In this document: piece after piece, positions 6,872 to 23,406 of the stretch
Layout: each line of letters opens with the position of its first letter
Numbering within the stretch: the first letter of the stretch is position 1
DNA from: a virus
Length of the DNA: 43,023 bases
Strand: one strand, 5' to 3'
Virus genome (UHGV): UHGV-0853564
Position numbers and translations under genes: made by a program
Notes under the pieces: model-generated
Told to the model about the DNA's origin: nothing
The model's database searches: none
The model's input: only the letters and a program-made list of their open reading frames with translations

Positions 6872-7491
6872 CAGGCGGCCTCCAGTCTCGAGATAACCAG
6901 TAGCGCGGATGGTGCTGTACCCCATGCGGTTACAGTAGCCGCTTGTGGGTATACTCCGCCGAAGTCACTCCCGGCGCTATCCCGCATAATCTGAACGGCA
7001 AACGTCTGGCCCGCGGTCGGGTTAATAATAACGCGAGACTCAATCGGGACTGTGATGTCAGCACTTACCAGTTTAGTAGCTGCTGGTGAGCCGTACTGAG
7101 CGCCGTTCAGGAGAATGCGCGATAGCAGGATAGATGTACCGCTAGCGCCGGTGCGCCCGGCCTGTAACTTGATGCGAACGGCGTAGTTACCTGCGGTGTT
7201 GAACGTAACAAGACCCGCGGCATTAATCATTACGGGGGCAGATGCGCTTCCCTGAGCAGAGCCGAACGATACCTGCAATGCCGTATCTACTGCGGTAGGC
7301 GCTTGTGCTACTGTCGACGCAGCGCGGAGAACTTCAACCTCTTTAACGCCAGGAGTGGCGTAAATAGGTGAGTCCGCCATCTGAGTCATTACCTCGCGTA
7401 GCTTCGCGGGTGTAATAGCTCCGGTGGTGTTGTCCGGGAGATTTGCACCGATAAGGGTAAACATCTCTGTTTTAGTCTTCGCCATTTTCAA
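6871..7491 (-). CDS. hypothetical structural protein
   Basis: 206-aa ORF within head-tail gene block; Ala/Thr/Gly-rich. Confidence 0.45.
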   Translation of the reverse strand: MKMAKTKTEMFTLIGANLPDNTTGAITPAKLREVMTQMADSPIYATPGVKEVEVLRAASTVAQAPTAVDTALQVSFGSAQGSASAPVMINAAGLVTFNTAGNYAVRIKLQAGRTGASGTSILLSRILLNGAQYGSPAATKLVSADITVPIESRVIINPTAGQTFAVQIMRDSAGSDFGGVYPQAATVTAWGTAPSALLVISRLEAA

Positions 7492-8000
7492 CCCCGGTAC
7501 ACGTTAAACGAGAAGCCATTGTTAAGGCCGCCACACAGTAACGGGCGTAAGGCATCGTCCGCGGCGGTAATCGCGGTCGTGGCGCCACTGCTGCCGTTGT
7601 TGAAGTACGTCACGGTTACTGCGCCCTCTACGCGCTCGGTCTGTACAGCGCGCCCATCTGAGTTAGCTCGTACCTCAGTACCTGCGCCATACGTAACGGC
7701 GGCGATTACCTGCGCAAGAATCACCTGCTTCGGGATGACGTTGTTAGCTACAGGGAACCCGTTTAACGTAACGCCAGTGCGAGGATACGCAAGAGACTGT
7801 TCGGCGGTTACACGACGACCGCACATCTGCGGTTCTGCAAGCCCTACATAAGTAGCACCGTTGCGTAAGGCCACCTCTGCTGCGGTATCGTCTTCTGGCA
7901 GCTCAAGGCCATAATTAGCCGCTAACGCGCGGGCGTCAGCCAGGCTAACGTAACTGTCAGCATTAGGGACGATTTCTCCCGTTTCCACGATTAGCGGCAT
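7488..8000 (-). CDS. putative head-tail connector / head completion protein
   Basis: 170-aa ORF, overlapping start-stop with neighbours. Confidence 0.4.
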   Translation of the reverse strand: MPLIVETGEIVPNADSYVSLADARALAANYGLELPEDDTAAEVALRNGATYVGLAEPQMCGRRVTAEQSLAYPRTGVTLNGFPVANNVIPKQVILAQVIAAVTYGAGTEVRANSDGRAVQTERVEGAVTVTYFNNGSSGATTAITAADDALRPLLCGGLNNGFSFNVYRG

Positions 8001-8003
8001 AAA

Positions 8004-8183
8004 TTATTCCTCTGACTTACGGCGACGACGCTTAGTACCGCCACCGTTGTTGTGCGCTTCTTCGCTGTCCGGTTGAGTCGCAACCAGTTCATCCGCTCCT
8101 ACAACACCGCGAACCGGCATCACCTGACCGCCAACAACGTCGACGTGTGTGTACTTTTCGCGGATTACGTAATTATCTGCCAT
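8004..8183 (-). CDS. small hypothetical protein with basic C-terminus (59 aa)
   Basis: ATG at 8183..8181; ends ...GGGTKRRRRKSEE; below ORF-track length cutoff. Confidence 0.3.
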   Translation of the reverse strand: MADNYVIREKYTHVDVVGGQVMPVRGVVGADELVATQPDSEEAHNNGGGTKRRRRKSEE

Positions 8184-8946: not shown

Positions 8947-8971
8947 TTAGGAATCCTCTTAGTAAATGAAA

Positions 8972-8991
8972 AGAGGGACCGAAGTCCCTCT
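8972..8991 (-). terminator. stem-loop AGAGGGAC-(UUCG)-GUCCCUCU after capsid gene
   Basis: Perfect 8-bp stem with UUCG tetraloop on minus transcript, between capsid and Ig-like genes. Confidence 0.4.
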
Positions 8992-9007
8992 CGATTATAG
9001 CTTAACC

Positions 9008-10057
9008 TTAAGCCCCGACACCAGTTACCAGGAAGGCAATCGGTACGTGCTTACGTTCAACCACACGGTTCCAGTTGGAGGCGTTCGCCAGGTCCTGCCA
9101 GGAAGCAGAACGTGCGACAGTCTCGGTGCCGTTGCCGGTGATTACCGCGCTGGTGAAGCTGTAGCCCAACGGATGCAACAGCCAGGTCTTACGGGTCCAC
9201 AGAGTTTCAACACCACCACCGTTGCCGCGGGACGCTTCGCGTTCATATTCCAGCGGGTTGGACGGAGAACCTTCACCGTAACCGATAGCGCCGTTTCCGA
9301 AGATGATGGAGATGAACTTACGACCACCGCCAGTACCAACTACGGTCATGCTGTCGTCAACAATCACACGGTAGCCCTGGTAGGTGGCGAACATGGTGTT
9401 GTTGTCAGCATCACGGATGTAGTCGATAAGCTGCTGCTTACGTGCCTGCGCATAAACAAAGCTGTGCATCGCGATAGCGCCCAGCACTTCACCGCCGTTA
9501 CCCATCAGAGCATCACCCATAGTCTGGGTAGCGTCAATGAATGCGCCGGAATCGAAGCCAAGAGTGGCGGACACGTCGATAACCATGTCGTTCTGCTCGT
9601 GGTAAGCATCGGTAGCAGCTACGTTGTCGTTGTACAGACCGAGCGCGGTGGCAATCAGACGGCGTTGTGCCTGACGTTGCCAGAAGTTATCCAGACGGGA
9701 CGCTACGGATTGCAGCGGATTCTGGCTGGTCAGTTCGACAGTCAAATCCGCCTGACCAAAACCTTCGTTCAGGTAGGCAACACGGGCCATCATCTCGCCG
9801 GTTTGCACGTTACGCGGGGTAGCGATGTCCTGATACACATCGTTCGAGCAGTTTGGCTCGATAGACGTATCAATCGCTTTCCAGAAAGGAATATTAGCGA
9901 CATTGGACGGACCGCGAGCAATCTCAGCGGCGTACGGAGTCGGGGTCAGAATACCGGACTGGAAGAACGCGGTTTTTTCTACCGGGTCCTCTGTCATATA
10001 AGACGCCAGGACCGGGATGTTGCCAGTTACGATATCGCCGATAGTGGTAATTGCCAT
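9008..10057 (-). CDS. major capsid protein
   Basis: 349-aa ORF immediately downstream of scaffold-like gene and followed by hairpin; size and synteny typical of HK97-fold capsid gene. Confidence 0.7.
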   Translation of the reverse strand: MAITTIGDIVTGNIPVLASYMTEDPVEKTAFFQSGILTPTPYAAEIARGPSNVANIPFWKAIDTSIEPNCSNDVYQDIATPRNVQTGEMMARVAYLNEGFGQADLTVELTSQNPLQSVASRLDNFWQRQAQRRLIATALGLYNDNVAATDAYHEQNDMVIDVSATLGFDSGAFIDATQTMGDALMGNGGEVLGAIAMHSFVYAQARKQQLIDYIRDADNNTMFATYQGYRVIVDDSMTVVGTGGGRKFISIIFGNGAIGYGEGSPSNPLEYEREASRGNGGGVETLWTRKTWLLHPLGYSFTSAVITGNGTETVARSASWQDLANASNWNRVVERKHVPIAFLVTGVGA

Positions 10058-10059
10058 TA

Positions 10060-10761
10060 TTATTTCCTCAGGGCTTTAAGTTGCCGTTCAAATTCGGCAG
10101 GGTTCGATTTATACAGAGCTAAACGCTCCGCTTCACTCATGTCTTTAAACGCTGGTGCGGCCCCGCCGCCTTTGCCACCGGAAGCCCCGCCGCCGGAAGC
10201 TGCATTTGCTTTAATCAAATGCGAAAACGCTTTATGTTCGCGCAGGTATTTGCGGAACTGTTCAGGGTCAGTCGTGATTACGTTGCCATCTGCGCCGACA
10301 AACTTAGTAACCACGTCATCACCTTCAAACTCAGTCTTAACGAACGGTGCAAGGATTTCCACTGCTTCCGGGGTGATAAAGTCACCAGCGAAAGAGCCTA
10401 ACACCGCTTTACGTTCGCTGCCGAGGATGCGCTCTGCCATTCTGGAGATGCGACCATCTTTCTCGGCTAGCACCGGGTCATACTGGCTACGAATCGTCTT
10501 TTCGAACTCGTCCATCTTACCGGCGGCTTTTAACGCCTCCTGGTGTGCGCGCTGCCGTTCTTCTTCGGCCTCTTTTGCTTTGCGAGCGGCTTCTTTCTTC
10601 TCCGCGAGCAATGCTTCCTGATTGGCCTTAAGCCCGGCAACCTCTTTCTCAATCAGCGCCTGAACTTCTTCAGCGGTGAACATTTTCGGCGCGTCACCGC
10701 CACCGGTTTTATCTTCTGCCCCAGCTTCTTCCTGGAACGGATAACGTAAAAAACGATTCAT
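10060..10761 (-). CDS. scaffolding protein
   Basis: Highly charged, alpha-helical, E/K/A-rich (EKKEAARKAKEAEEERQRAHQEALKAAGK); ATG at 10761..10759 with AGGGGA RBS preferred over track start 10815. Confidence 0.6.
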   Translation of the reverse strand: MNRFLRYPFQEEAGAEDKTGGGDAPKMFTAEEVQALIEKEVAGLKANQEALLAEKKEAARKAKEAEEERQRAHQEALKAAGKMDEFEKTIRSQYDPVLAEKDGRISRMAERILGSERKAVLGSFAGDFITPEAVEILAPFVKTEFEGDDVVTKFVGADGNVITTDPEQFRKYLREHKAFSHLIKANAASGGGASGGKGGGAAPAFKDMSEAERLALYKSNPAEFERQLKALRK

Positions 10762-10841
10762 AGTCAGTATGTCCCCTGGACGTTGGAATCCGGGCCACCC
10801 GGATTTACATGTCAAGAATAAATTATTCCAACATGCAAGGC

Positions 10842-10858
10842 AACTATTCCAGAATATT
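10842..10858. promoter_or_regulatory. imperfect dyad AACTATTCC-AGAATATT, next to TTATTCCAACAT (10823..10834)
   Basis: Shares ACTATTC half-site with promoter elements; both motifs recur at 11591..11617. Confidence 0.35.
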
Positions 10859-11107
10859 CCTCACGTAATCCTGCAACATGAACACTTTCAGTCTCAGTTG
10901 CCGTACACATTCGGCGTTCCGGACGTCAATAGCTAAATCCTCGTCCGCGTCACTACTTGGTGGCGCCAGTTTGCACGGCGGCTGCATCATCGTCGTATCC
11001 GGGGATGGAATTGGCGTTTGCGACGGCGCGGGACTTGAGCAGGACGCGAGCATCGTCGAAAGTGCACACGCTGCGGCCAGGCGTTTTAATGTACTTAACG
11101 ACTTCAC
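10844..11107 (-). CDS. putative o-spanin (Rz1-like lipoprotein), overlapped with i-spanin gene
   Basis: Signal peptide with lipobox L-A-S-C followed by Pro-rich mature region; starts inside the 10953..11339 ORF in another frame. Confidence 0.5.
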   Translation of the reverse strand: MKSLSTLKRLAAACALSTMLASCSSPAPSQTPIPSPDTTMMQPPCKLAPPSSDADEDLAIDVRNAECVRQLRLKVFMLQDYVRNILE

Positions 11108-11339
11108 GGGTAATCACCTCTGATTTCGTCTTGCCTTCGTTGTCAGCGGCGGCGGCCTTTGATTCGTCCTGCTGCTGCCGTTGGGTTTTCTTCGCCAACT
11201 CCGCCTGTGCTTTCTGCTGTTGCTGCGAAACGAGATTAGCCCGGCCTTCGTTCCAGCCGGCGCGGTATTGATAGTAGCCGTGTGCATATAACAGGATGAT
11301 GAAACATGCTCCCGCTACGACAGTTGCTTTAAGATTCAT
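10953..11339 (-). CDS. putative i-spanin (Rz-like)
   Basis: N-terminal TM segment then Q/A/K-rich helical periplasmic region; contains the lipoprotein ORF in +1 frame. Confidence 0.5.
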   Translation of the reverse strand: MNLKATVVAGACFIILLYAHGYYQYRAGWNEGRANLVSQQQQKAQAELAKKTQRQQQDESKAAAADNEGKTKSEVITREVVKYIKTPGRSVCTFDDARVLLKSRAVANANSIPGYDDDAAAVQTGATK

Positions 11340-11363
11340 GTTTCCCCTTTCTCGATAAGTAAA

Positions 11364-11383
11364 GCCCCGCCTTAAAGCGGGGC
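11364..11383 (-). terminator. stem-loop GCCCCGC-N6-GCGGGGC followed by T-rich tract on minus strand
   Basis: Perfect 7-bp GC stem, immediately upstream of the i-spanin start. Confidence 0.4.
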
Positions 11384-11590
11384 GCTAGTCCTTATCATTT
11401 AAACATAGAAACGGCGTAATCTCTGCAAACCAGTTACTTTTTACACAAGCAATAGAGTATGGCCCTTCCGAACGCGTCAGCGTAACTACACTCAGGACTT
11501 ACGTCCCGCTCCGTTACCTGCCCGCGCCGCGGTCGCTTGTTCATACTTCACAAGCTCAGGTGGAGCTTAGCACATTTTCAGTGAAAAGTC

Positions 11591-11606
11591 AACTATTCGA
11601 ATAGTT
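11591..11606. promoter_or_regulatory. perfect 16-bp palindrome AACTATTCGAATAGTT (operator-like)
   Basis: Contains both orientations of the GAATAGT half-site; followed by TTATTCCAACAT (11606..11617). Confidence 0.45.
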
Positions 11607-11658
11607 TATTCCAACATTTACAAATGAGTGGAATAACTGGAATACATAAACAAATAGT

Positions 11659-11690
11659 TTGCGCACCCCAATATAATAGGGTACTATTCA
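11659..11690 (+). promoter_or_regulatory. promoter-like element TTGCGC-N17-TACTAT (copy of 2703..2734)
   Basis: ttgcgcaccccaatataatagggtactattca, ~24 nt upstream of ATG 11714. Confidence 0.5.
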
Positions 11691-11713
11691 GTTAACTTAA
11701 ACAGGAGGTATTT

Positions 11714-11938
11714 ATGCCGATTAGATTTACAAATCAAAAGAAGTCTAGAGATGTACGCCCCGGAGAAAAGGTGCAGGTATTTGACGAGTGGTACTGGGTT
11801 CGTTACATAGATTATCTTGGTGGTAAAAAGCTAAATTTACGTTTGCAGCACGAAAATGAGCCTCTTAGCCCGTTCTATGAAAACGATAAAATAGTCATAA
11901 CCATGCCCGATGATTTGGTGATAGACGTGGAAGTTTAA
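11714..11938 (+). CDS. hypothetical 74-aa protein, moron gene
   Basis: AGGAGG RBS; own promoter-like element and terminator; opposite strand to flanking structural genes; AT-rich. Confidence 0.55.
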   Translation: MPIRFTNQKKSRDVRPGEKVQVFDEWYWVRYIDYLGGKKLNLRLQHENEPLSPFYENDKIVITMPDDLVIDVEV

Positions 11939-11944
11939 AACTAA

Positions 11945-11965
11945 AGCCCCGTAATGGGGCTTTTT
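11945..11965. terminator. rho-independent terminator AGCCCC-GTAAT-GGGGCT + T5
   Basis: Hairpin followed by TTTTT on plus strand; lies between convergent genes. Confidence 0.65.
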
Positions 11966-11966
11966 A

Positions 11967-12428
11967 TCATTCCGGCTTAGTAACCTTCGCCGCTTTACTA
12001 ACGGCCTCTACGCCATCGGCATCGGCGACTTTAACGAAGTATTCACCAACTGCGTTAACAGTCAGAGACAAAGCCTCTTCAGGTGCGTTTACAACTTCCT
12101 TACCGTCTTTGTACCAGGTCAGCGCATACGGCGCTTTACCGGCCTTAACTTCGACAGTGATAGTTGCACTGCCATCGGTCAGTTCGGCGTCTTTCGGTTG
12201 CACGGAGAAGTACACATCACCAGCGTCCGCCAGATACGGAATCTCATAGAGCATACCGGCGGCGGGCAACGCAATACCGGTTTTATCTGCAAACGGCATA
12301 TCATCTACAGGCGTACCAAGTACACTTTCATCTTCAATAAACACCACGTTCTCGCCGGAGCCAGACACGCGGGCGTACTGAACTACGCGACGCGACGGCA
12401 CATCAGTTACTTTGAAAAAGCCCATCAT
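11967..12428 (-). CDS. Ig-like domain-containing virion protein
   Basis: 153 aa; C-terminal TITVEVKAGKAPYALTWYKDGKEV resembles Ig-like fold. Confidence 0.45.
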   Translation of the reverse strand: MMGFFKVTDVPSRRVVQYARVSGSGENVVFIEDESVLGTPVDDMPFADKTGIALPAAGMLYEIPYLADAGDVYFSVQPKDAELTDGSATITVEVKAGKAPYALTWYKDGKEVVNAPEEALSLTVNAVGEYFVKVADADGVEAVSKAAKVTKPE

Positions 12429-13504
12429 TATTCCCCTTTCAGATAATCAGCAACACGTTTATCGAGTTCCGCCATCTGTTTAAGCGTGAGCGGATTCCCG
12501 AAACCATCTACAGATATTACGCGAAACTCTTCCGGCGATATACCGCTGTTACGGAAAATCTTACCCCGCACCGGGCCGAGCGCCTGGTCCTGAAACCACG
12601 CCGGTTGTTGTTTCAGGAACTCGTAGTAAGTAGTGTCTGCGCTCACCTGAGTACCGCCGTCCGCACCCTTAGCCGCTCGTTTCGCGCCTTTATCGAGGAA
12701 GTCGAACTCTGAGCTGATTACCGGAGCCGTGGTACTTCGACAGCCAAAATGGGCCGGTGGCATCGGACCTTTTCCAATTTCCCACGTCATTCCGTCTCTG
12801 GCTCTGCAAATTGTACTGGTGCGGCTGTCCAGCGTTGACACCCACTCGTACTTCTCGATGATGTCGTCGTTCTGGCGGTACGTCTCATTGCGGGCTTCAT
12901 TGGATACGTGGGACAGCGCGGTGCGGATTACCGTCGCAGCGTTACGCTCAGAGATGTCCGCCAGCCCACCGGAGCCTACGACATTCTTAACAATCTGCCG
13001 TGTGGTTTGGCCTTGTACGAAACCCATCTTAACGCCAGTCACCAGGCGCGCGACTTCTGTTTCACCCCAGCCATCCATCAGCTTAGTGAAATCGACGGGC
13101 TTGTCACTTAACGATATTGGTTGAAACTCCGCAGCAGCCCATACCTGTTCAGCGGTAGGTGTAACAAATTCAGCGTTAACGTTAGCCGTCAGCGTCTTTA
13201 CGTTCCACTCAGCCTCATATGCCGCCAGTTCCTTAAGGTCTTCTGTCAGCTTTGTTTGCCAGTCAACTGTAAGTCCCGCCAGTGCTTCTTCAAGGTCGCG
13301 TAACAGTTTATTCAGTCGGGCGGTGCTGCGGCCATCATCGCCGAATAACAGCACCTGCCGTTTGATTTCGTCCCGCATTTCCTTAATAAACGGTGTGAGG
13401 TCTTTCACCTCACCGGATGCGGTTCGTTGCAGCCATATCTGGTGGCTGATTAGGGATGTAAGTAAGCTCATAGATAAACCCTGTGGCGCTAAAGTTAATA
13501 GCAT
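12428..13504 (-). CDS. head morphogenesis protein (Mu F / SPP1 gp7-like minor head protein)
   Basis: Motif WVSTLDSRTSTICRARDG...PPAHFGCRST characteristic of Mu-F-like proteins; immediately downstream of portal gene. Confidence 0.7.
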   Translation of the reverse strand: MLLTLAPQGLSMSLLTSLISHQIWLQRTASGEVKDLTPFIKEMRDEIKRQVLLFGDDGRSTARLNKLLRDLEEALAGLTVDWQTKLTEDLKELAAYEAEWNVKTLTANVNAEFVTPTAEQVWAAAEFQPISLSDKPVDFTKLMDGWGETEVARLVTGVKMGFVQGQTTRQIVKNVVGSGGLADISERNAATVIRTALSHVSNEARNETYRQNDDIIEKYEWVSTLDSRTSTICRARDGMTWEIGKGPMPPAHFGCRSTTAPVISSEFDFLDKGAKRAAKGADGGTQVSADTTYYEFLKQQPAWFQDQALGPVRGKIFRNSGISPEEFRVISVDGFGNPLTLKQMAELDKRVADYLKGE

Positions 13505-19129: not shown

Positions 19130-19615
19130 TCATTTTACTGCACGTCCGATAGCCTCCGCCTCCTGCCACGGTCTACCGTCGAACAGCGCCAGACGGCCTG
19201 CTGTACGGCGGCGCAGGCCGAGTAACGGTTTGCCGTTCTGGTTGATGAACAGCGCCAGTTTAGCCCGCAGAGTCGCGGTATCACCAGAACGCAGCGCCCT
19301 ACCCGTGCCGGTAGTAGCTGCAATCACACCTGCGCCAGCGTTGTAGACCAGGTCGCACACTGCATCGAACTGTGCCTGTGTCATCGAATGGTGTGCCGCC
19401 GCATCGACAGCGGCTACAGCCTTAGCCATGTCACGGTTCAGTAACAGGAGGCCCTGCCCCGGTGTGATGGTCTTACCGGGTGTTACGTCTGGGCCGTAGT
19501 GACCGTACCCGATAGTCAGGTACTTTTCGTTCGGCGTAGCGCGATACGCAGTTCCGCGGAATCCCTCGAATGCAGCGGTGAAATGCAACCCATTATCTGA
19601 AATGTTTCGAGACAC
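19130..19615 (-). CDS. endolysin (phage lysozyme-like)
   Basis: Motif FEGFRGTAY...YLTIGYGH resembles T4-lysozyme-family active-site region; GTG at 19615 with GGAGGA RBS preferred over TTG track start 19666. Confidence 0.6.
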   Translation of the reverse strand: MSRNISDNGLHFTAAFEGFRGTAYRATPNEKYLTIGYGHYGPDVTPGKTITPGQGLLLLNRDMAKAVAAVDAAAHHSMTQAQFDAVCDLVYNAGAGVIAATTGTGRALRSGDTATLRAKLALFINQNGKPLLGLRRRTAGRLALFDGRPWQEAEAIGRAVK

Positions 19616-19865
19616 GCTTATGTCCTCCGTATGACAGCCACGCCTGGCGAATCTGGCGCAGCGCAACTAATGTGATTAATGTCTCAGGCAACGTTGGTGA
19701 CATGCTGCCCTGTAACAGGTGGATACATCCGGCGGCACAGACAATAGCGGTCAGGATATAGAGCACCCGACCAAATAGTCCGTCGTCTATACTCGGATGA
19801 TACACGTTAAACAGCGATGTGCCTCCGATTGCCAGCATACCGCCGAACCAGAATAACTCATTCAT
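19593..19865 (-). CDS. holin-like membrane protein (second of pair)
   Basis: Internal ATG at 19865 overlapping upstream stop; ~90 aa with hydrophobic segments. Confidence 0.5.
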   Translation of the reverse strand: MNELFWFGGMLAIGGTSLFNVYHPSIDDGLFGRVLYILTAIVCAAGCIHLLQGSMSPTLPETLITLVALRQIRQAWLSYGGHKRVSKHFR

Positions 19866-20166
19866 CCGGGCCTCCTCGACGTGCGATGTATTCTCCGGCG
19901 ACGATGCCAGAAAGGCGGGAATAGATAGGCATCCAGAGAATGGCAATGATGAAGCCCAGGCCGGCGATTTCACGGTCACCCGTGATGCCGAACCATTGAG
20001 CTGCCAGAGGTGCACCAAATACGGCGCAGGTGAAGCCGGTTGCGATAAAGCAGAAGCCGTCAACAGGGCCGGAAATGACGGTCTTATGTTGCCGTAGTCC
20101 GATTACCCCTCCGGCTAGCGCGGCAGCCAGAAGCCACCCCGTCACTGTTTCAGTAAATTTATCCAA
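19858..20166 (-). CDS. holin-like membrane protein
   Basis: 102 aa with multiple hydrophobic TM-like segments, immediately upstream of endolysin. Confidence 0.55.
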   Translation of the reverse strand: MDKFTETVTGWLLAAALAGGVIGLRQHKTVISGPVDGFCFIATGFTCAVFGAPLAAQWFGITGDREIAGLGFIIAILWMPIYSRLSGIVAGEYIARRGGPDE

Positions 20167-22994: not shown

Positions 22995-23026
22995 TGAATA
23001 GTATCCTATTATGTTGGGGTGTGCAA
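22995..23026 (-). promoter_or_regulatory. promoter-like element for leftward operon (reverse copy of 2703..2734)
   Basis: Minus-strand reading ttgcacaccccaacataataggatactattca; second GAATAGT at 23029..23035. Confidence 0.5.
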
Positions 23027-23406
23027 GAGAATAGTTACGTTGCCGTTGTGATTCTTCAGGCAGGGTTGTGCCTTTATTCTTATTACTTGGTAACTAAAGG
23101 GCAGGCCTTAAGCCTGCCCAATAATCGTTACATTTTTACGGTTGCGAATCTACGGCACATTAAGAAAATCAGATACTTAAGAGATATGCCGCCGGTGAGA
23201 ATAGAGCTTGCCCAGGGCAACCGGAGATACTTAGGGAGGAAAGTTACGATAATTCTTATGTTCAGTAAACTTTCGCTTAACACTTTGCTTGCGCTGCGCG
23301 CAACTGCGTTTTAAGCGGTTTTACAAGGTGAACAGGAATCAAAGTAACTAAGATATAGAAGCACCTTAAACGAAGATTTCCATAATGTCAATAGGTGCGA
23401 TTATGT

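What the first reader, a model, noticed from the sequence alone, without database searches (positions are those of the whole stretch)
10823..11618. Overlapped Rz/Rz1-like spanin pair located in the head gene cluster, far from the holin-endolysin cassette
A TM-anchored helical protein (10953..11339) and a +1-frame lipoprotein with lipobox LASC and Pro-rich mature region (10844..11107) sit between the head morphogenesis and scaffold genes, ~8 kb from the holins and endolysin at 19130..20166. The pair is bracketed by repeated short motifs (TTATTCCAACAT and AACTATTC dyads at 10823..10858 and 11591..11617), suggesting separate acquisition or regulation.
Basis: partly seen in the sequence, partly recalled or inferred. 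Interest (0 to 1): 0.5.

Follow-up and report, generated by a model that had tools for sequence, protein, structure and literature searches.

The report
Known spanin pair among head genes
The two overlapping genes are a real outer-membrane-disrupting "spanin" pair, but this pair and its odd position among the head genes are already catalogued for this whole phage group. The only fresh item is a conserved structured RNA just upstream of it.

Summary
The window is a Kagunavirus-like (Guernseyvirinae) E. coli/Salmonella siphophage. Both ORFs exist as described.

- **i-spanin:** 10953..11339(-), 128 aa, with an N-terminal membrane helix.
- **o-spanin:** 10844..11107(-), 87 aa, in the +1 frame with a 155-nt overlap. 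It has a GTG start behind a strong Shine-Dalgarno site, a lipobox LASC (Cys23) and a Pro-rich mature part.

They belong to the "Jersey" overlapped spanin family of Kongari et al. 2018, which has the same 155-bp overlap and the same conserved Cys45/Cys67. Many GenBank relatives annotate them as spanins. The position between the Hoc-like/MuF genes and the scaffold gene holds in every Kagunavirus, Jerseyvirus, Cornellvirus and Dhillonvirus locus examined. It is therefore old synteny, not a recent acquisition.

The flanking repeats are real and specific. They are conserved GGAATA/TATTCC clusters at two promoter regions, one before the scaffold gene and one about 250 nt upstream of the i-spanin. 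They are not cassette ends.

Between the upstream promoter and the i-spanin lies a roughly 200-nt noncoding RNA. It has strong covariation support, a terminator-like hairpin and no Rfam match, and some relatives carry a second copy at the early operon. Its function is unknown.

Verdict: observation confirmed, identity correct, already known. Low interest apart from the RNA.

The parts
10953..11339 (-). i-spanin (Rz-like), 128 aa: N-terminal transmembrane helix, long periplasmic helix, one periplasmic Cys (C92)
   Evidence: ORF. phrog_2536 E=9e-56. Hydropathy. AF2 helix 3-84. Codon-position diversity 0.050/0.039/0.155.
10844..11107 (-). o-spanin (Rz1-like), 87 aa precursor: GTG start, lipobox LASC with Cys23, 65-aa mature lipoprotein with Cys45 and Cys67; +1 frame, 155-nt overlap with the i-spanin
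   Evidence: phrog_1267 E=4e-18 and phrog_5672 E=1e-29. It is the only ORF in the window that passes the lipoprotein filter. The lipobox is kept in relatives despite sequence change. Periodicity in the non-overlapped part is 0.048/0.015/0.165.
11114..11121 (-). Shine-Dalgarno AGAGGTGA for the o-spanin GTG, lying inside the i-spanin gene
   Evidence: upstream sequence.
11354..11383 (-). GC-rich hairpin (11383..11364) plus UUUACUUAUC, an intrinsic-terminator-like element about 15 nt before the i-spanin SD and 24 nt before its ATG
   Evidence: Terminator scan. The hairpin keeps its position with compensatory changes in relatives, but the U-tract is weak in Jersey-type phages.
11447..11563 (-). 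Conserved structured 5' domain (P1 hairpin; P2-P3-P4 long hairpin; invariant UUCGGAAGGGCC) of a roughly 200-nt noncoding leader RNA
   Evidence: Alignments. Model R1 and its hits. Pair counts: 94.7% paired, 20 of 28 pairs with double changes. RNAalifold. No Rfam match. Diversity 0.016 against 0.08 in the spanin genes, with no codon periodicity.
11564..11592 (-). Promoter-like site P_B: -35 TTGACT (11592..11587), 17-nt spacer, TGn + TAAGCT (-10 at 11569..11564). Inferred transcription start near 11557.
   Evidence: Read from the sequence. The architecture is conserved in Kagunavirus, Jerseyvirus and 'pink'. It was not called by the consensus scan, because it matches only 8 of 12 positions.
11590..11646 (.). 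Site B: cluster of GAATA/TATTC half-sites (palindrome 11591-11606; TGGAATAAACTATTC; TGGAATAACTGGAATA). It lies between P_B and the divergent promoter of the + strand gene 11714..11938.
   Evidence: Conserved in relatives.
10815..10860 (.). Site A: second GAATA/TATTC cluster. It partly lies inside the o-spanin C-terminal codons. It contains the palindrome GAATAATTTATTC and a promoter-like TTGCCT (10843..10838)-17-TATTCT (10820..10815) on the - strand, upstream of the scaffold gene.
   Evidence: GGAATAATTTATTCTTG is invariant in all 13 relatives aligned across three genera.
10787..10805 (-). Conserved stem-loop (AAUCCGGG-UGG-CCCGGAUU) in the scaffold 5' untranslated region. Its lower stem shows compensatory changes between genera.
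   Evidence: Inverted repeat I2. Alignment A2.

Best explanation
These two genes encode the phage's two-component spanin, the last-step lysis factor.

**How it works (inferred from established spanin biology).**
- The 128-aa product is anchored in the inner membrane by its N-terminal helix and extends a mainly helical domain into the periplasm.
- The 87-aa product is exported, lipidated on Cys23, cleaved by signal peptidase II and sorted to the outer membrane, since it has no Asp at +2.
- The C-terminal parts of the two proteins bind, so the complex spans the periplasm through the peptidoglycan mesh.
- Once the holins and endolysin (19130..20166) destroy the wall, the complexes are free to fuse or disrupt the two membranes and release the virions.

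**Expression (inferred).** Expression is separate from the holin-endolysin cassette. The pair is the first coding unit after a conserved sigma-70-like promoter (P_B), a roughly 200-nt structured leader and a terminator-like hairpin. A second conserved promoter region (site A) for the scaffold and capsid genes follows the pair.

**What is shown and what is inferred.**
- Shown: gene anatomy, targeting signals, family membership, conserved synteny, and the reality of the RNA structure.
- Inferred: the lysis function, the transcription start sites, and any role of the leader.
For: - **Family hits:** PHROG Rz-like spanin hits for both products.
- **Match to the published family:** the Jersey overlapped spanin family has K1G/K1H/K1ind members, a 155-bp overlap and conserved o-spanin Cys45 and Cys67 (PMC6139136). 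All of these match.
- **Annotation in relatives:** relatives at 94-96% identity annotate i-/o-spanin here.
- **Targeting signals:** transmembrane helix, lipobox, Ser at +2, Pro-rich linker, strong SD before the GTG.
- **No alternative candidate:** this is the only lipoprotein-signal ORF in the window. The phage therefore has no other spanin candidate, and none next to the endolysin.
- **Lipobox under selection:** it is preserved while the signal peptide diverges, with LASC/LSAC/LSGC/LTGC/ITGC/MSAC variants.
- **Both frames are coding:** both non-overlapped parts show coding periodicity.
- **Structure:** the AF2 model has one long helix over residues 3-84.
- **Distribution:** homologues occur in 626 phage records. 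The synteny is the same in the four genera examined.
Against: - No experiment bears on this pair. I found no functional test of any Jersey-family spanin in the papers I read.
- The AF2 model was made from a single sequence and has low confidence beyond residue ~60. A coiled coil and the i/o-spanin contact are therefore not shown.
- The Pfam hit (DUF2514, E=0.006) is below its threshold.
- The pair is not adjacent to holin or endolysin. Adjacency is the usual contextual support for calling a spanin.
Confidence: 0.9

Rival explanations
1. The pair is not a spanin. It is a moron-type membrane-protein/lipoprotein pair with another role, such as superinfection exclusion by a lipoprotein like T5 Llp or Cor, inserted in the head module.
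For: It lies 7.8 kb from the lysis cassette. It sits next to a slot that holds variable opposite-strand morons in relatives.
Against: - Both products hit Rz-like spanin families and match the catalogued Jersey family in detail.
- The pair is universal and syntenic in more than 600 records, unlike the variable morons.
- It has the late-gene orientation.
- The window holds no other spanin candidate.
Confidence: 0.04
2. Only the i-spanin is real. The second frame is either not translated or makes only the 47-48-aa product annotated in many records, starting at Met40/41 and lacking a signal peptide.
For: Schulenburg, Bas70, demigod and other records annotate a 144-147-nt CDS. phrog_5672 is a 47-residue profile.
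Against: - The GTG at 11107 has a near-ideal SD, whereas Met40/41 have none.
- The upstream 39 residues form a canonical lipoprotein signal.
- That lipobox is maintained in relatives even where the sequence differs and the Cys shifts from 23 to 22.
- K1ind2 annotates the 264-nt form.
- Kongari et al. report mis-called o-spanin starts as a common annotation error.
Confidence: 0.03
3. The flanking repeats are the ends of a mobile cassette that brought the spanin pair into the head cluster.
For: Direct repeats of 12-19 nt bracket the pair plus its leader.
Against: - Both repeat sites and the pair are conserved in place across Kagunavirus, Jerseyvirus and Cornellvirus.
- In VSiP, site A stays with the scaffold gene although another gene separates it from the o-spanin.
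- Dhillonvirus has the same synteny, with the i-spanin start overlapping the MuF gene stop.
- No relative examined lacks the pair at this site.
Confidence: 0.05

Closest known systems
'Jersey' overlapped two-component spanin family (Kongari et al. 2018, BMC Bioinformatics 19:326; members Jersey, SETP3, K1G, K1H, K1ind1-3, HK578, SO-1 and others)
   Same: Overlapped architecture, 155-bp overlap, conserved o-spanin Cys45 and Cys67, and a helical i-spanin. Relatives at 94-96% nucleotide identity carry the same genes.
   Different: Nothing material. This is another member. The lipobox here is LASC/Cys23, whereas many Kagunaviruses have LSAC/Cys22.
Phage lambda Rz/Rz1
   Same: An inner-membrane i-spanin with an N-terminal transmembrane helix plus a Pro-rich outer-membrane lipoprotein encoded in the +1 frame. 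Periplasmic cysteines are present. The role is presumed to be outer-membrane disruption.
   Different: - Lambda Rz1 is fully embedded in Rz and lies directly after S and R in one cassette. Here the o-spanin runs 109 nt past the i-spanin stop, and the pair is 7.8 kb from the holins and endolysin.
- Sequence similarity is only remote (other Rz-like PHROGs at E 4e-6 to 9e-3).
T4 PseT.3/PseT.2 and other phages with unclustered lysis genes
   Same: Spanin genes are unlinked to the holin and endolysin genes. Kongari et al. note that T4-like lysis genes are not clustered.
   Different: The T4 genes are of a different family and context. Here the pair is embedded in the head morphogenesis module.
Lambda pR'-6S RNA-tR' leader and HK022 put RNAs (for the upstream RNA only; a resemblance, not membership)
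   Same: A promoter is followed at once by a structured RNA and a terminator-like hairpin ahead of late or lysis genes. The RNA has two stem-loop units. Some genomes carry two copies behind two promoters, as with putL/putR.
   Different: - It has no Rfam match of any kind. No comparison with put RNA itself was made.
- At about 110 nt, the domain is larger than the ~70-nt put RNAs.
- No Q-like antiterminator is annotated in a fully annotated relative.
- The U-tract of the hairpin is weak in Jersey-type phages.
- Read-through has not been tested.

Membership tests
Two-component spanin (i-spanin/o-spanin) | i-spanin: single N-terminal transmembrane helix, with the rest of the protein periplasmic | tested here: met
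   Residues 1-19 have mean Kyte-Doolittle 1.76 and are preceded by K4. AF2 gives a continuous helix from residue 3. Topology itself is inferred.
Two-component spanin (i-spanin/o-spanin) | i-spanin periplasmic domain largely alpha-helical or coiled-coil | tested here: inconclusive
   The single-sequence AF2 model has a helix over 3-84 (block-mean pLDDT 77-93 to residue ~60) and a second helix over 94-107 at pLDDT below 50. No coiled-coil or oligomer test was possible.
Two-component spanin (i-spanin/o-spanin) | o-spanin: signal peptidase II signal with a lipobox Cys | tested here: met
   MKSLSTLKRLAAACALSTMLAS|C, with lipobox LASC. It is unique among the 1154 ORF variants scanned. It is conserved in function across relatives.
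Two-component spanin (i-spanin/o-spanin) | Outer-membrane sorting: no Asp at +2 after the lipidated Cys | tested here: met
   Ser at +2 and +3.
Two-component spanin (i-spanin/o-spanin) | Small, Pro-rich mature o-spanin | tested here: met
   The mature protein is 65 aa, with 9 Pro in the first 30 residues.
Two-component spanin (i-spanin/o-spanin) | o-spanin gene embedded in, overlapping or directly following the i-spanin gene | tested here: met
   +1 frame, 155-nt overlap, extending 109 nt beyond the i-spanin stop. This is the 'overlapped' class.
Two-component spanin (i-spanin/o-spanin) | Periplasmic cysteines for intermolecular disulfides | tested here: met
   i-spanin C92; o-spanin C45 and C67. 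These are the positions reported as constant in the Jersey family. Disulfide formation was not tested.
Two-component spanin (i-spanin/o-spanin) | Physical i/o-spanin C-terminal interaction and outer-membrane disruption at lysis | not testable with these tools
   Needs complementation, deletion or pull-down experiments.
Jersey spanin family (Kongari 2018) | Sequence homology of both subunits to family members | tested here: met
   phrog_2536 E=9e-56 and phrog_1267 E=4e-18. tblastn gives 92-96% identity to Kagunavirus records and 61-76% to Jerseyvirus records. K1ind2 carries the same two CDS.
Canonical lysis cassette membership | Spanin genes adjacent to the holin and endolysin genes | tested here: not met
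   The holins and endolysin are at 19130..20166, and the pair is at 10844..11339. This is not a defining feature of spanins. It holds for the whole subfamily.
HK022 put-type or lambda Q/pR'-type antitermination leader (upstream RNA) | Structured nascent RNA or promoter-proximal element that makes RNA polymerase read through downstream terminators | not testable with these tools
   Only the layout is shown: a promoter-like site, a covarying two-hairpin RNA and a terminator-like hairpin. No Rfam family matches. No antiterminator gene is annotated in Bas70.

The most novel reading that the evidence does not exclude
The roughly 200-nt leader between promoter P_B and the i-spanin start (11563..11354, - strand) is an undescribed family of structured phage RNA. 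It would act in cis on transcription or mRNA fate, as a put-like antiterminator, an attenuator or an RNase III processing signal. It would thereby set how much transcription passes the hairpin into the spanin genes, and possibly the head genes. The promoter-plus-RNA unit behaves as a module: three related Kagunavirus contigs carry a second, covarying copy at the head of the early operon.
Probability: 0.45. Interest if true: 0.5.

Novelty: already known. Interest (0 to 1): 0.2.

Why it matters
**The spanin pair.** Little is added for the pair itself. It confirms a catalogued family and shows that its placement inside the head module is an old, stable trait of Guernseyvirinae and Dhillonvirus.

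**Two practical points.**
- Many database records and PHROG 5672 carry a truncated o-spanin that lacks its lipoprotein signal. That annotation should be corrected.
- The "intergenic" 370 nt upstream holds one of the most conserved sequences in the region. It is a covarying RNA with no family assignment, and it is a concrete target for transcript mapping in a phage group that is widely isolated for therapy.

Tried and rejected
- **Rfam.** Searches at gathering thresholds over the whole window, and at E up to 10 over 10700-12000, gave nothing credible.
- **tRNA/tmRNA scan.** No hits in the window.
- **36-aa ORF at 11434..11544(-).** Some relatives annotate it as a hypothetical protein. I rejected it as coding because its start is deleted in Jersey-type phages and variation shows no codon periodicity.
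- **Consensus promoter scan.** It found no site in 9900-12600. The promoters proposed here were read by eye and supported only by conservation.
- **Second RNA copy in this window.** Not found with up to 3 mismatches, with nhmmer or with the covariance model.
- **Bacterial genome scan with the 15-mer CGCNTTCGGAAGGGCC.** It returned only chance hits in GC-rich genomes. The RNA model matched none of the 80 loci convincingly.
- **Wasted literature search.** One search was wasted on too loose a term setting.
- **Not run.** I did not run the large protein-database searches, because family membership was already settled.

Full report
**What the window is.** The region 10700-11750 matches 224 phage records. 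The best are E. coli Kagunavirus genomes at 94-96% identity (Ro145clw, fFiEco02, Schulenburg, K1ind2), and most of them annotate "spanin" under the match. A more sensitive search finds 494 records, mostly Salmonella Jersey-like phages.

**Checking the observation.** Both ORFs are present.
- **i-spanin candidate (10953..11339, - strand).** It has an ATG start behind AGGGGA. Its N-terminus is the most hydrophobic 19-residue stretch of the protein.
- **o-spanin candidate (10844..11107, - strand).** It starts at a GTG six bases after AGAGGTGA. It lies in the +1 frame and overlaps the first gene by 155 nt. It encodes MKSLSTLKRLAAACALSTMLAS|CSS..., with a lipobox LASC, Ser at +2, and nine prolines in the first 30 mature residues.
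- **Chance.** I scanned all 1154 possible start-codon ORFs of at least 40 aa in six frames with a simple lipoprotein-signal rule. Only this ORF passed. The signal is therefore not a chance feature. There is also no second o-spanin or unimolecular spanin candidate, in particular none beside the endolysin.
- **Neighbours.** PHROGs confirm them: MuF-like head morphogenesis, Hoc-like decoration, scaffold and major capsid genes on one side, and two holins plus an endolysin at 19130..20166.

**Identity.**
- The two products hit Rz-like spanin PHROGs (2536 at 9e-56; 1267 at 4e-18; 5672 at 1e-29).
- Kongari et al. 2018 describe a 27-member "Jersey" family of overlapped spanins that includes K1G, K1H and K1ind1-3. 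They state that the Jersey genes overlap by 155 bp and that o-spanin Cys45 and Cys67 are constant. The window has exactly these features.
- Papers on relatives list the same split arrangement. Golestan has spanin ORF7/8 against holin-endolysin ORF66-68. SeF1 has Gp_009/010 against Gp_063-065.
- The pair and its separation from the lysis cassette are therefore already on record.

**Which o-spanin start is right.** Many records (Schulenburg, Bas70, demigod and others) and PHROG 5672 use a 47-48-aa form that starts at Met40/41 and lacks any signal. The evidence favours the 87-aa form.
- Only the GTG has a Shine-Dalgarno site.
- The lipobox is preserved in relatives while the signal peptide changes. 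Kagunaviruses have LASC/Cys23 or LSAC/Cys22. Jersey-type, pink, VSiP and Dhillonvirus have LLSGC, LTLTGC, GITGC and MMSAC.
- Among 30 Kagunavirus sequences, both non-overlapped gene parts show coding periodicity. Diversity by codon position is 0.050/0.039/0.155 for the i-spanin and 0.048/0.015/0.165 for the o-spanin.
- In the overlap, variation peaks at i-spanin third positions. Those are o-spanin second positions, as expected if the signal peptide and linker tolerate change.
- A single-sequence AlphaFold model of the i-spanin gives one long helix over residues 3-84, confident to about residue 60, and a low-confidence C-terminal part.

**Position in the genome.** The pair sits between the Hoc-like gene and the scaffold gene in every Guernseyvirinae locus I fetched.
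- Kagunavirus.
- Jerseyvirus.
- Cornellvirus VSiP, which has the "separated" architecture.
- In Dhillonvirus the pair lies between the MuF-like gene and the scaffold gene, and the i-spanin start overlaps the MuF stop.
- tblastn finds the i-spanin in 626 records.

The placement is thus old and stable, which argues against separate acquisition in this phage. From established spanin biology, spanins accumulate harmlessly until the wall is degraded, so they need not be co-regulated with holin and endolysin. T4-like phages also have unclustered lysis genes.

**The flanking repeats.** They are real. Clusters of GGAATA/TATTCC hexamers occur only at 10824-10860 (site A) and 11607-11644 (site B) in the whole window.
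- **Site A.** It is highly conserved. GGAATAATTTATTCTTG is invariant in all 13 relatives aligned across three genera. In VSiP it stays next to the scaffold gene although another gene lies between it and the o-spanin. On the - strand it contains TTGCCT-17-TATTCT. A stem-loop (10805..10787) follows, and its lower stem changes by compensatory substitutions between genera. I read this as the promoter region and 5' hairpin of the scaffold/capsid mRNA, which is an inference.
- **Site B.** It lies just upstream of a conserved TTGACT-17-TGnTAAGCT element (11592..11564, - strand). It faces a + strand promoter-like site, TTGCGC-17-TACTAT (11659-11687), for the small gene 11714..11938. That site is nearly identical to the one in front of the first early gene at about 23026..22998.

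The repeats therefore mark two regulatory regions, not cassette ends. What binds them is unknown. The consensus promoter scan called none of these sites, so the promoter assignments rest on conservation only.

**The stretch between site B and the i-spanin.** The roughly 200 nt from about 11557 to 11354 (- strand) are noncoding and more conserved than the genes around them (diversity 0.016 against 0.08).
- **Structure.** They fold into a small hairpin P1 and a long three-part hairpin P2-P3-P4. An invariant UUCGGAAGGGCC follows, then a variable segment and a GC-rich hairpin with UUUACUUAUC that ends about 15 nt before the i-spanin SD (24 nt before the ATG).
- **Covariation between types.** Kagunavirus-type, Jersey-type and second-copy versions have different helix sequences but the same helices. 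One P2 pair is C-G, U-A or A-U in the three types.
- **Covariance model.** A covariance model finds the element in every Guernseyvirinae locus that covers this region, except Cornellvirus VSiP. The match is only weak in phage pink, and there is none in Dhillonvirus.
- **Pair counts on the model alignment.** 94.7% of cells pair, against 81% in shuffles. 20 of 28 pairs show double changes, against 8.7 in shuffles. Slid controls pair at 30-41%. The alignment is fitted to the model, which favours the structure.
- **Independent fold.** RNAalifold recovers the same helices on its own, with 17 of 24 pairs compensatory.
- **Database match.** No Rfam family matches.
- **Second copies.** Three Kagunavirus contigs carry a second copy with the same promoter and covarying stems, about 11 kb away at the head of the early operon next to an Xis-like gene. 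In this window that slot holds a different promoter, a roughly 270-nt leader and a terminator.
- **Consequence for the i-spanin.** No room is left for a promoter between the hairpin and the i-spanin ribosome-binding site. The i-spanin must therefore be transcribed through this leader.

**What the leader might do.** All of this is inference.
- A put-like or other antitermination or attenuation element, about 0.2. The layout and the two copies recall HK022 putL/putR.
- An RNase III-type processing and stabilising signal, about 0.15.
- An independent small RNA with a trans target, about 0.2.
- Other or unknown for the rest.

Against a simple terminator model, the U-tract is weak in Jersey-type phages. 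No Q-like antiterminator is annotated in a fully annotated relative.

**Verdict.** This is an ordinary member of a published family in its usual place. The repeats reflect conserved regulatory sites rather than acquisition. The upstream RNA is the only part that appears undescribed, and it deserves a separate, modest follow-up.

Noticed in passing
window 11354-11563 (- strand): A conserved, covarying noncoding RNA of about 200 nt with no Rfam match lies directly upstream of the i-spanin and is five times less variable than the spanin genes. Some records annotate a 36-aa ORF inside it (11434..11544); that ORF is not conserved and shows no codon periodicity.
   Followed up: yes
L028:11805-11923, L051:12237-12355, L058:8502-8620: Three Kagunavirus-like IMG/VR contigs carry a second copy of the same promoter-plus-RNA module. 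It has compensatory stem changes and sits at the head of the early operon beside an Xis-like HTH gene. This window has no second copy.
   Followed up: partly
window 23091-23391 (- strand): The slot that holds the second RNA copy in those relatives is occupied here by a different unit. It consists of TTGACA-17-TAAGGT, a roughly 270-nt noncoding leader and a strong terminator (hairpin 23119..23098 plus TTTAGTT). The early promoter-like site TTGCAC-17-TACTAT (23026..22998) follows it.
   Followed up: no
window 11659-11938 (+ strand): A 74-aa gene of unknown function (phrog_8705) lies on the opposite strand between the Hoc-like gene and the spanin leader. Its promoter-like site is almost identical to the early one at about 23026..22998. 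In relatives this slot is empty or holds a sliding-clamp-like gene, a Dam methylase or other genes. Cornellvirus and Dhillonvirus have an opposite-strand gene at site A instead.
   Followed up: partly
GenBank relatives (e.g. L001:12142-12288, L059:5839-5982) and PHROG 5672: The o-spanin is widely annotated as a 47-48-aa protein that starts at an internal Met and lacks its lipoprotein signal. The 87-aa GTG-initiated form is the one supported here.
   Followed up: yes
Kagunavirus loci, o-spanin residues 17-24: Two lipobox variants coexist among close relatives: ...STMLAS-C (Cys23, as here) and ...LLTLSA-C (Cys22). The lipidated Cys has therefore shifted by one residue while a valid lipobox was kept.
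   Followed up: partly
window 10787-10805: A stem-loop in the scaffold 5' untranslated region is conserved across three genera, with compensatory changes in its lower stem. It may be an mRNA 5' stabiliser or the 3' end of the spanin transcript.
   Followed up: partly
window 8966-10621 (+ strand): A 551-aa open reading frame runs antisense across the major capsid and scaffold genes. It is probably a by-product of their codon usage.
   Followed up: no
L005:2710-2788 and L008:2711-2789 (+ strand): ARAGORN calls a tRNA-Ser(tga) on the opposite strand in Jerseyvirus loci. It overlaps the 3' end of the Hoc-like gene and the region upstream of the RNA promoter, and the records annotate it too. Nothing comparable is called in this window. 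It may be a false positive.
   Followed up: partly
window 7995-8011: A partial copy of the GAATAA-N-TTATTC motif (2 mismatches) lies at the start of the head-tail adaptor gene 7488..8000(-).
   Followed up: no
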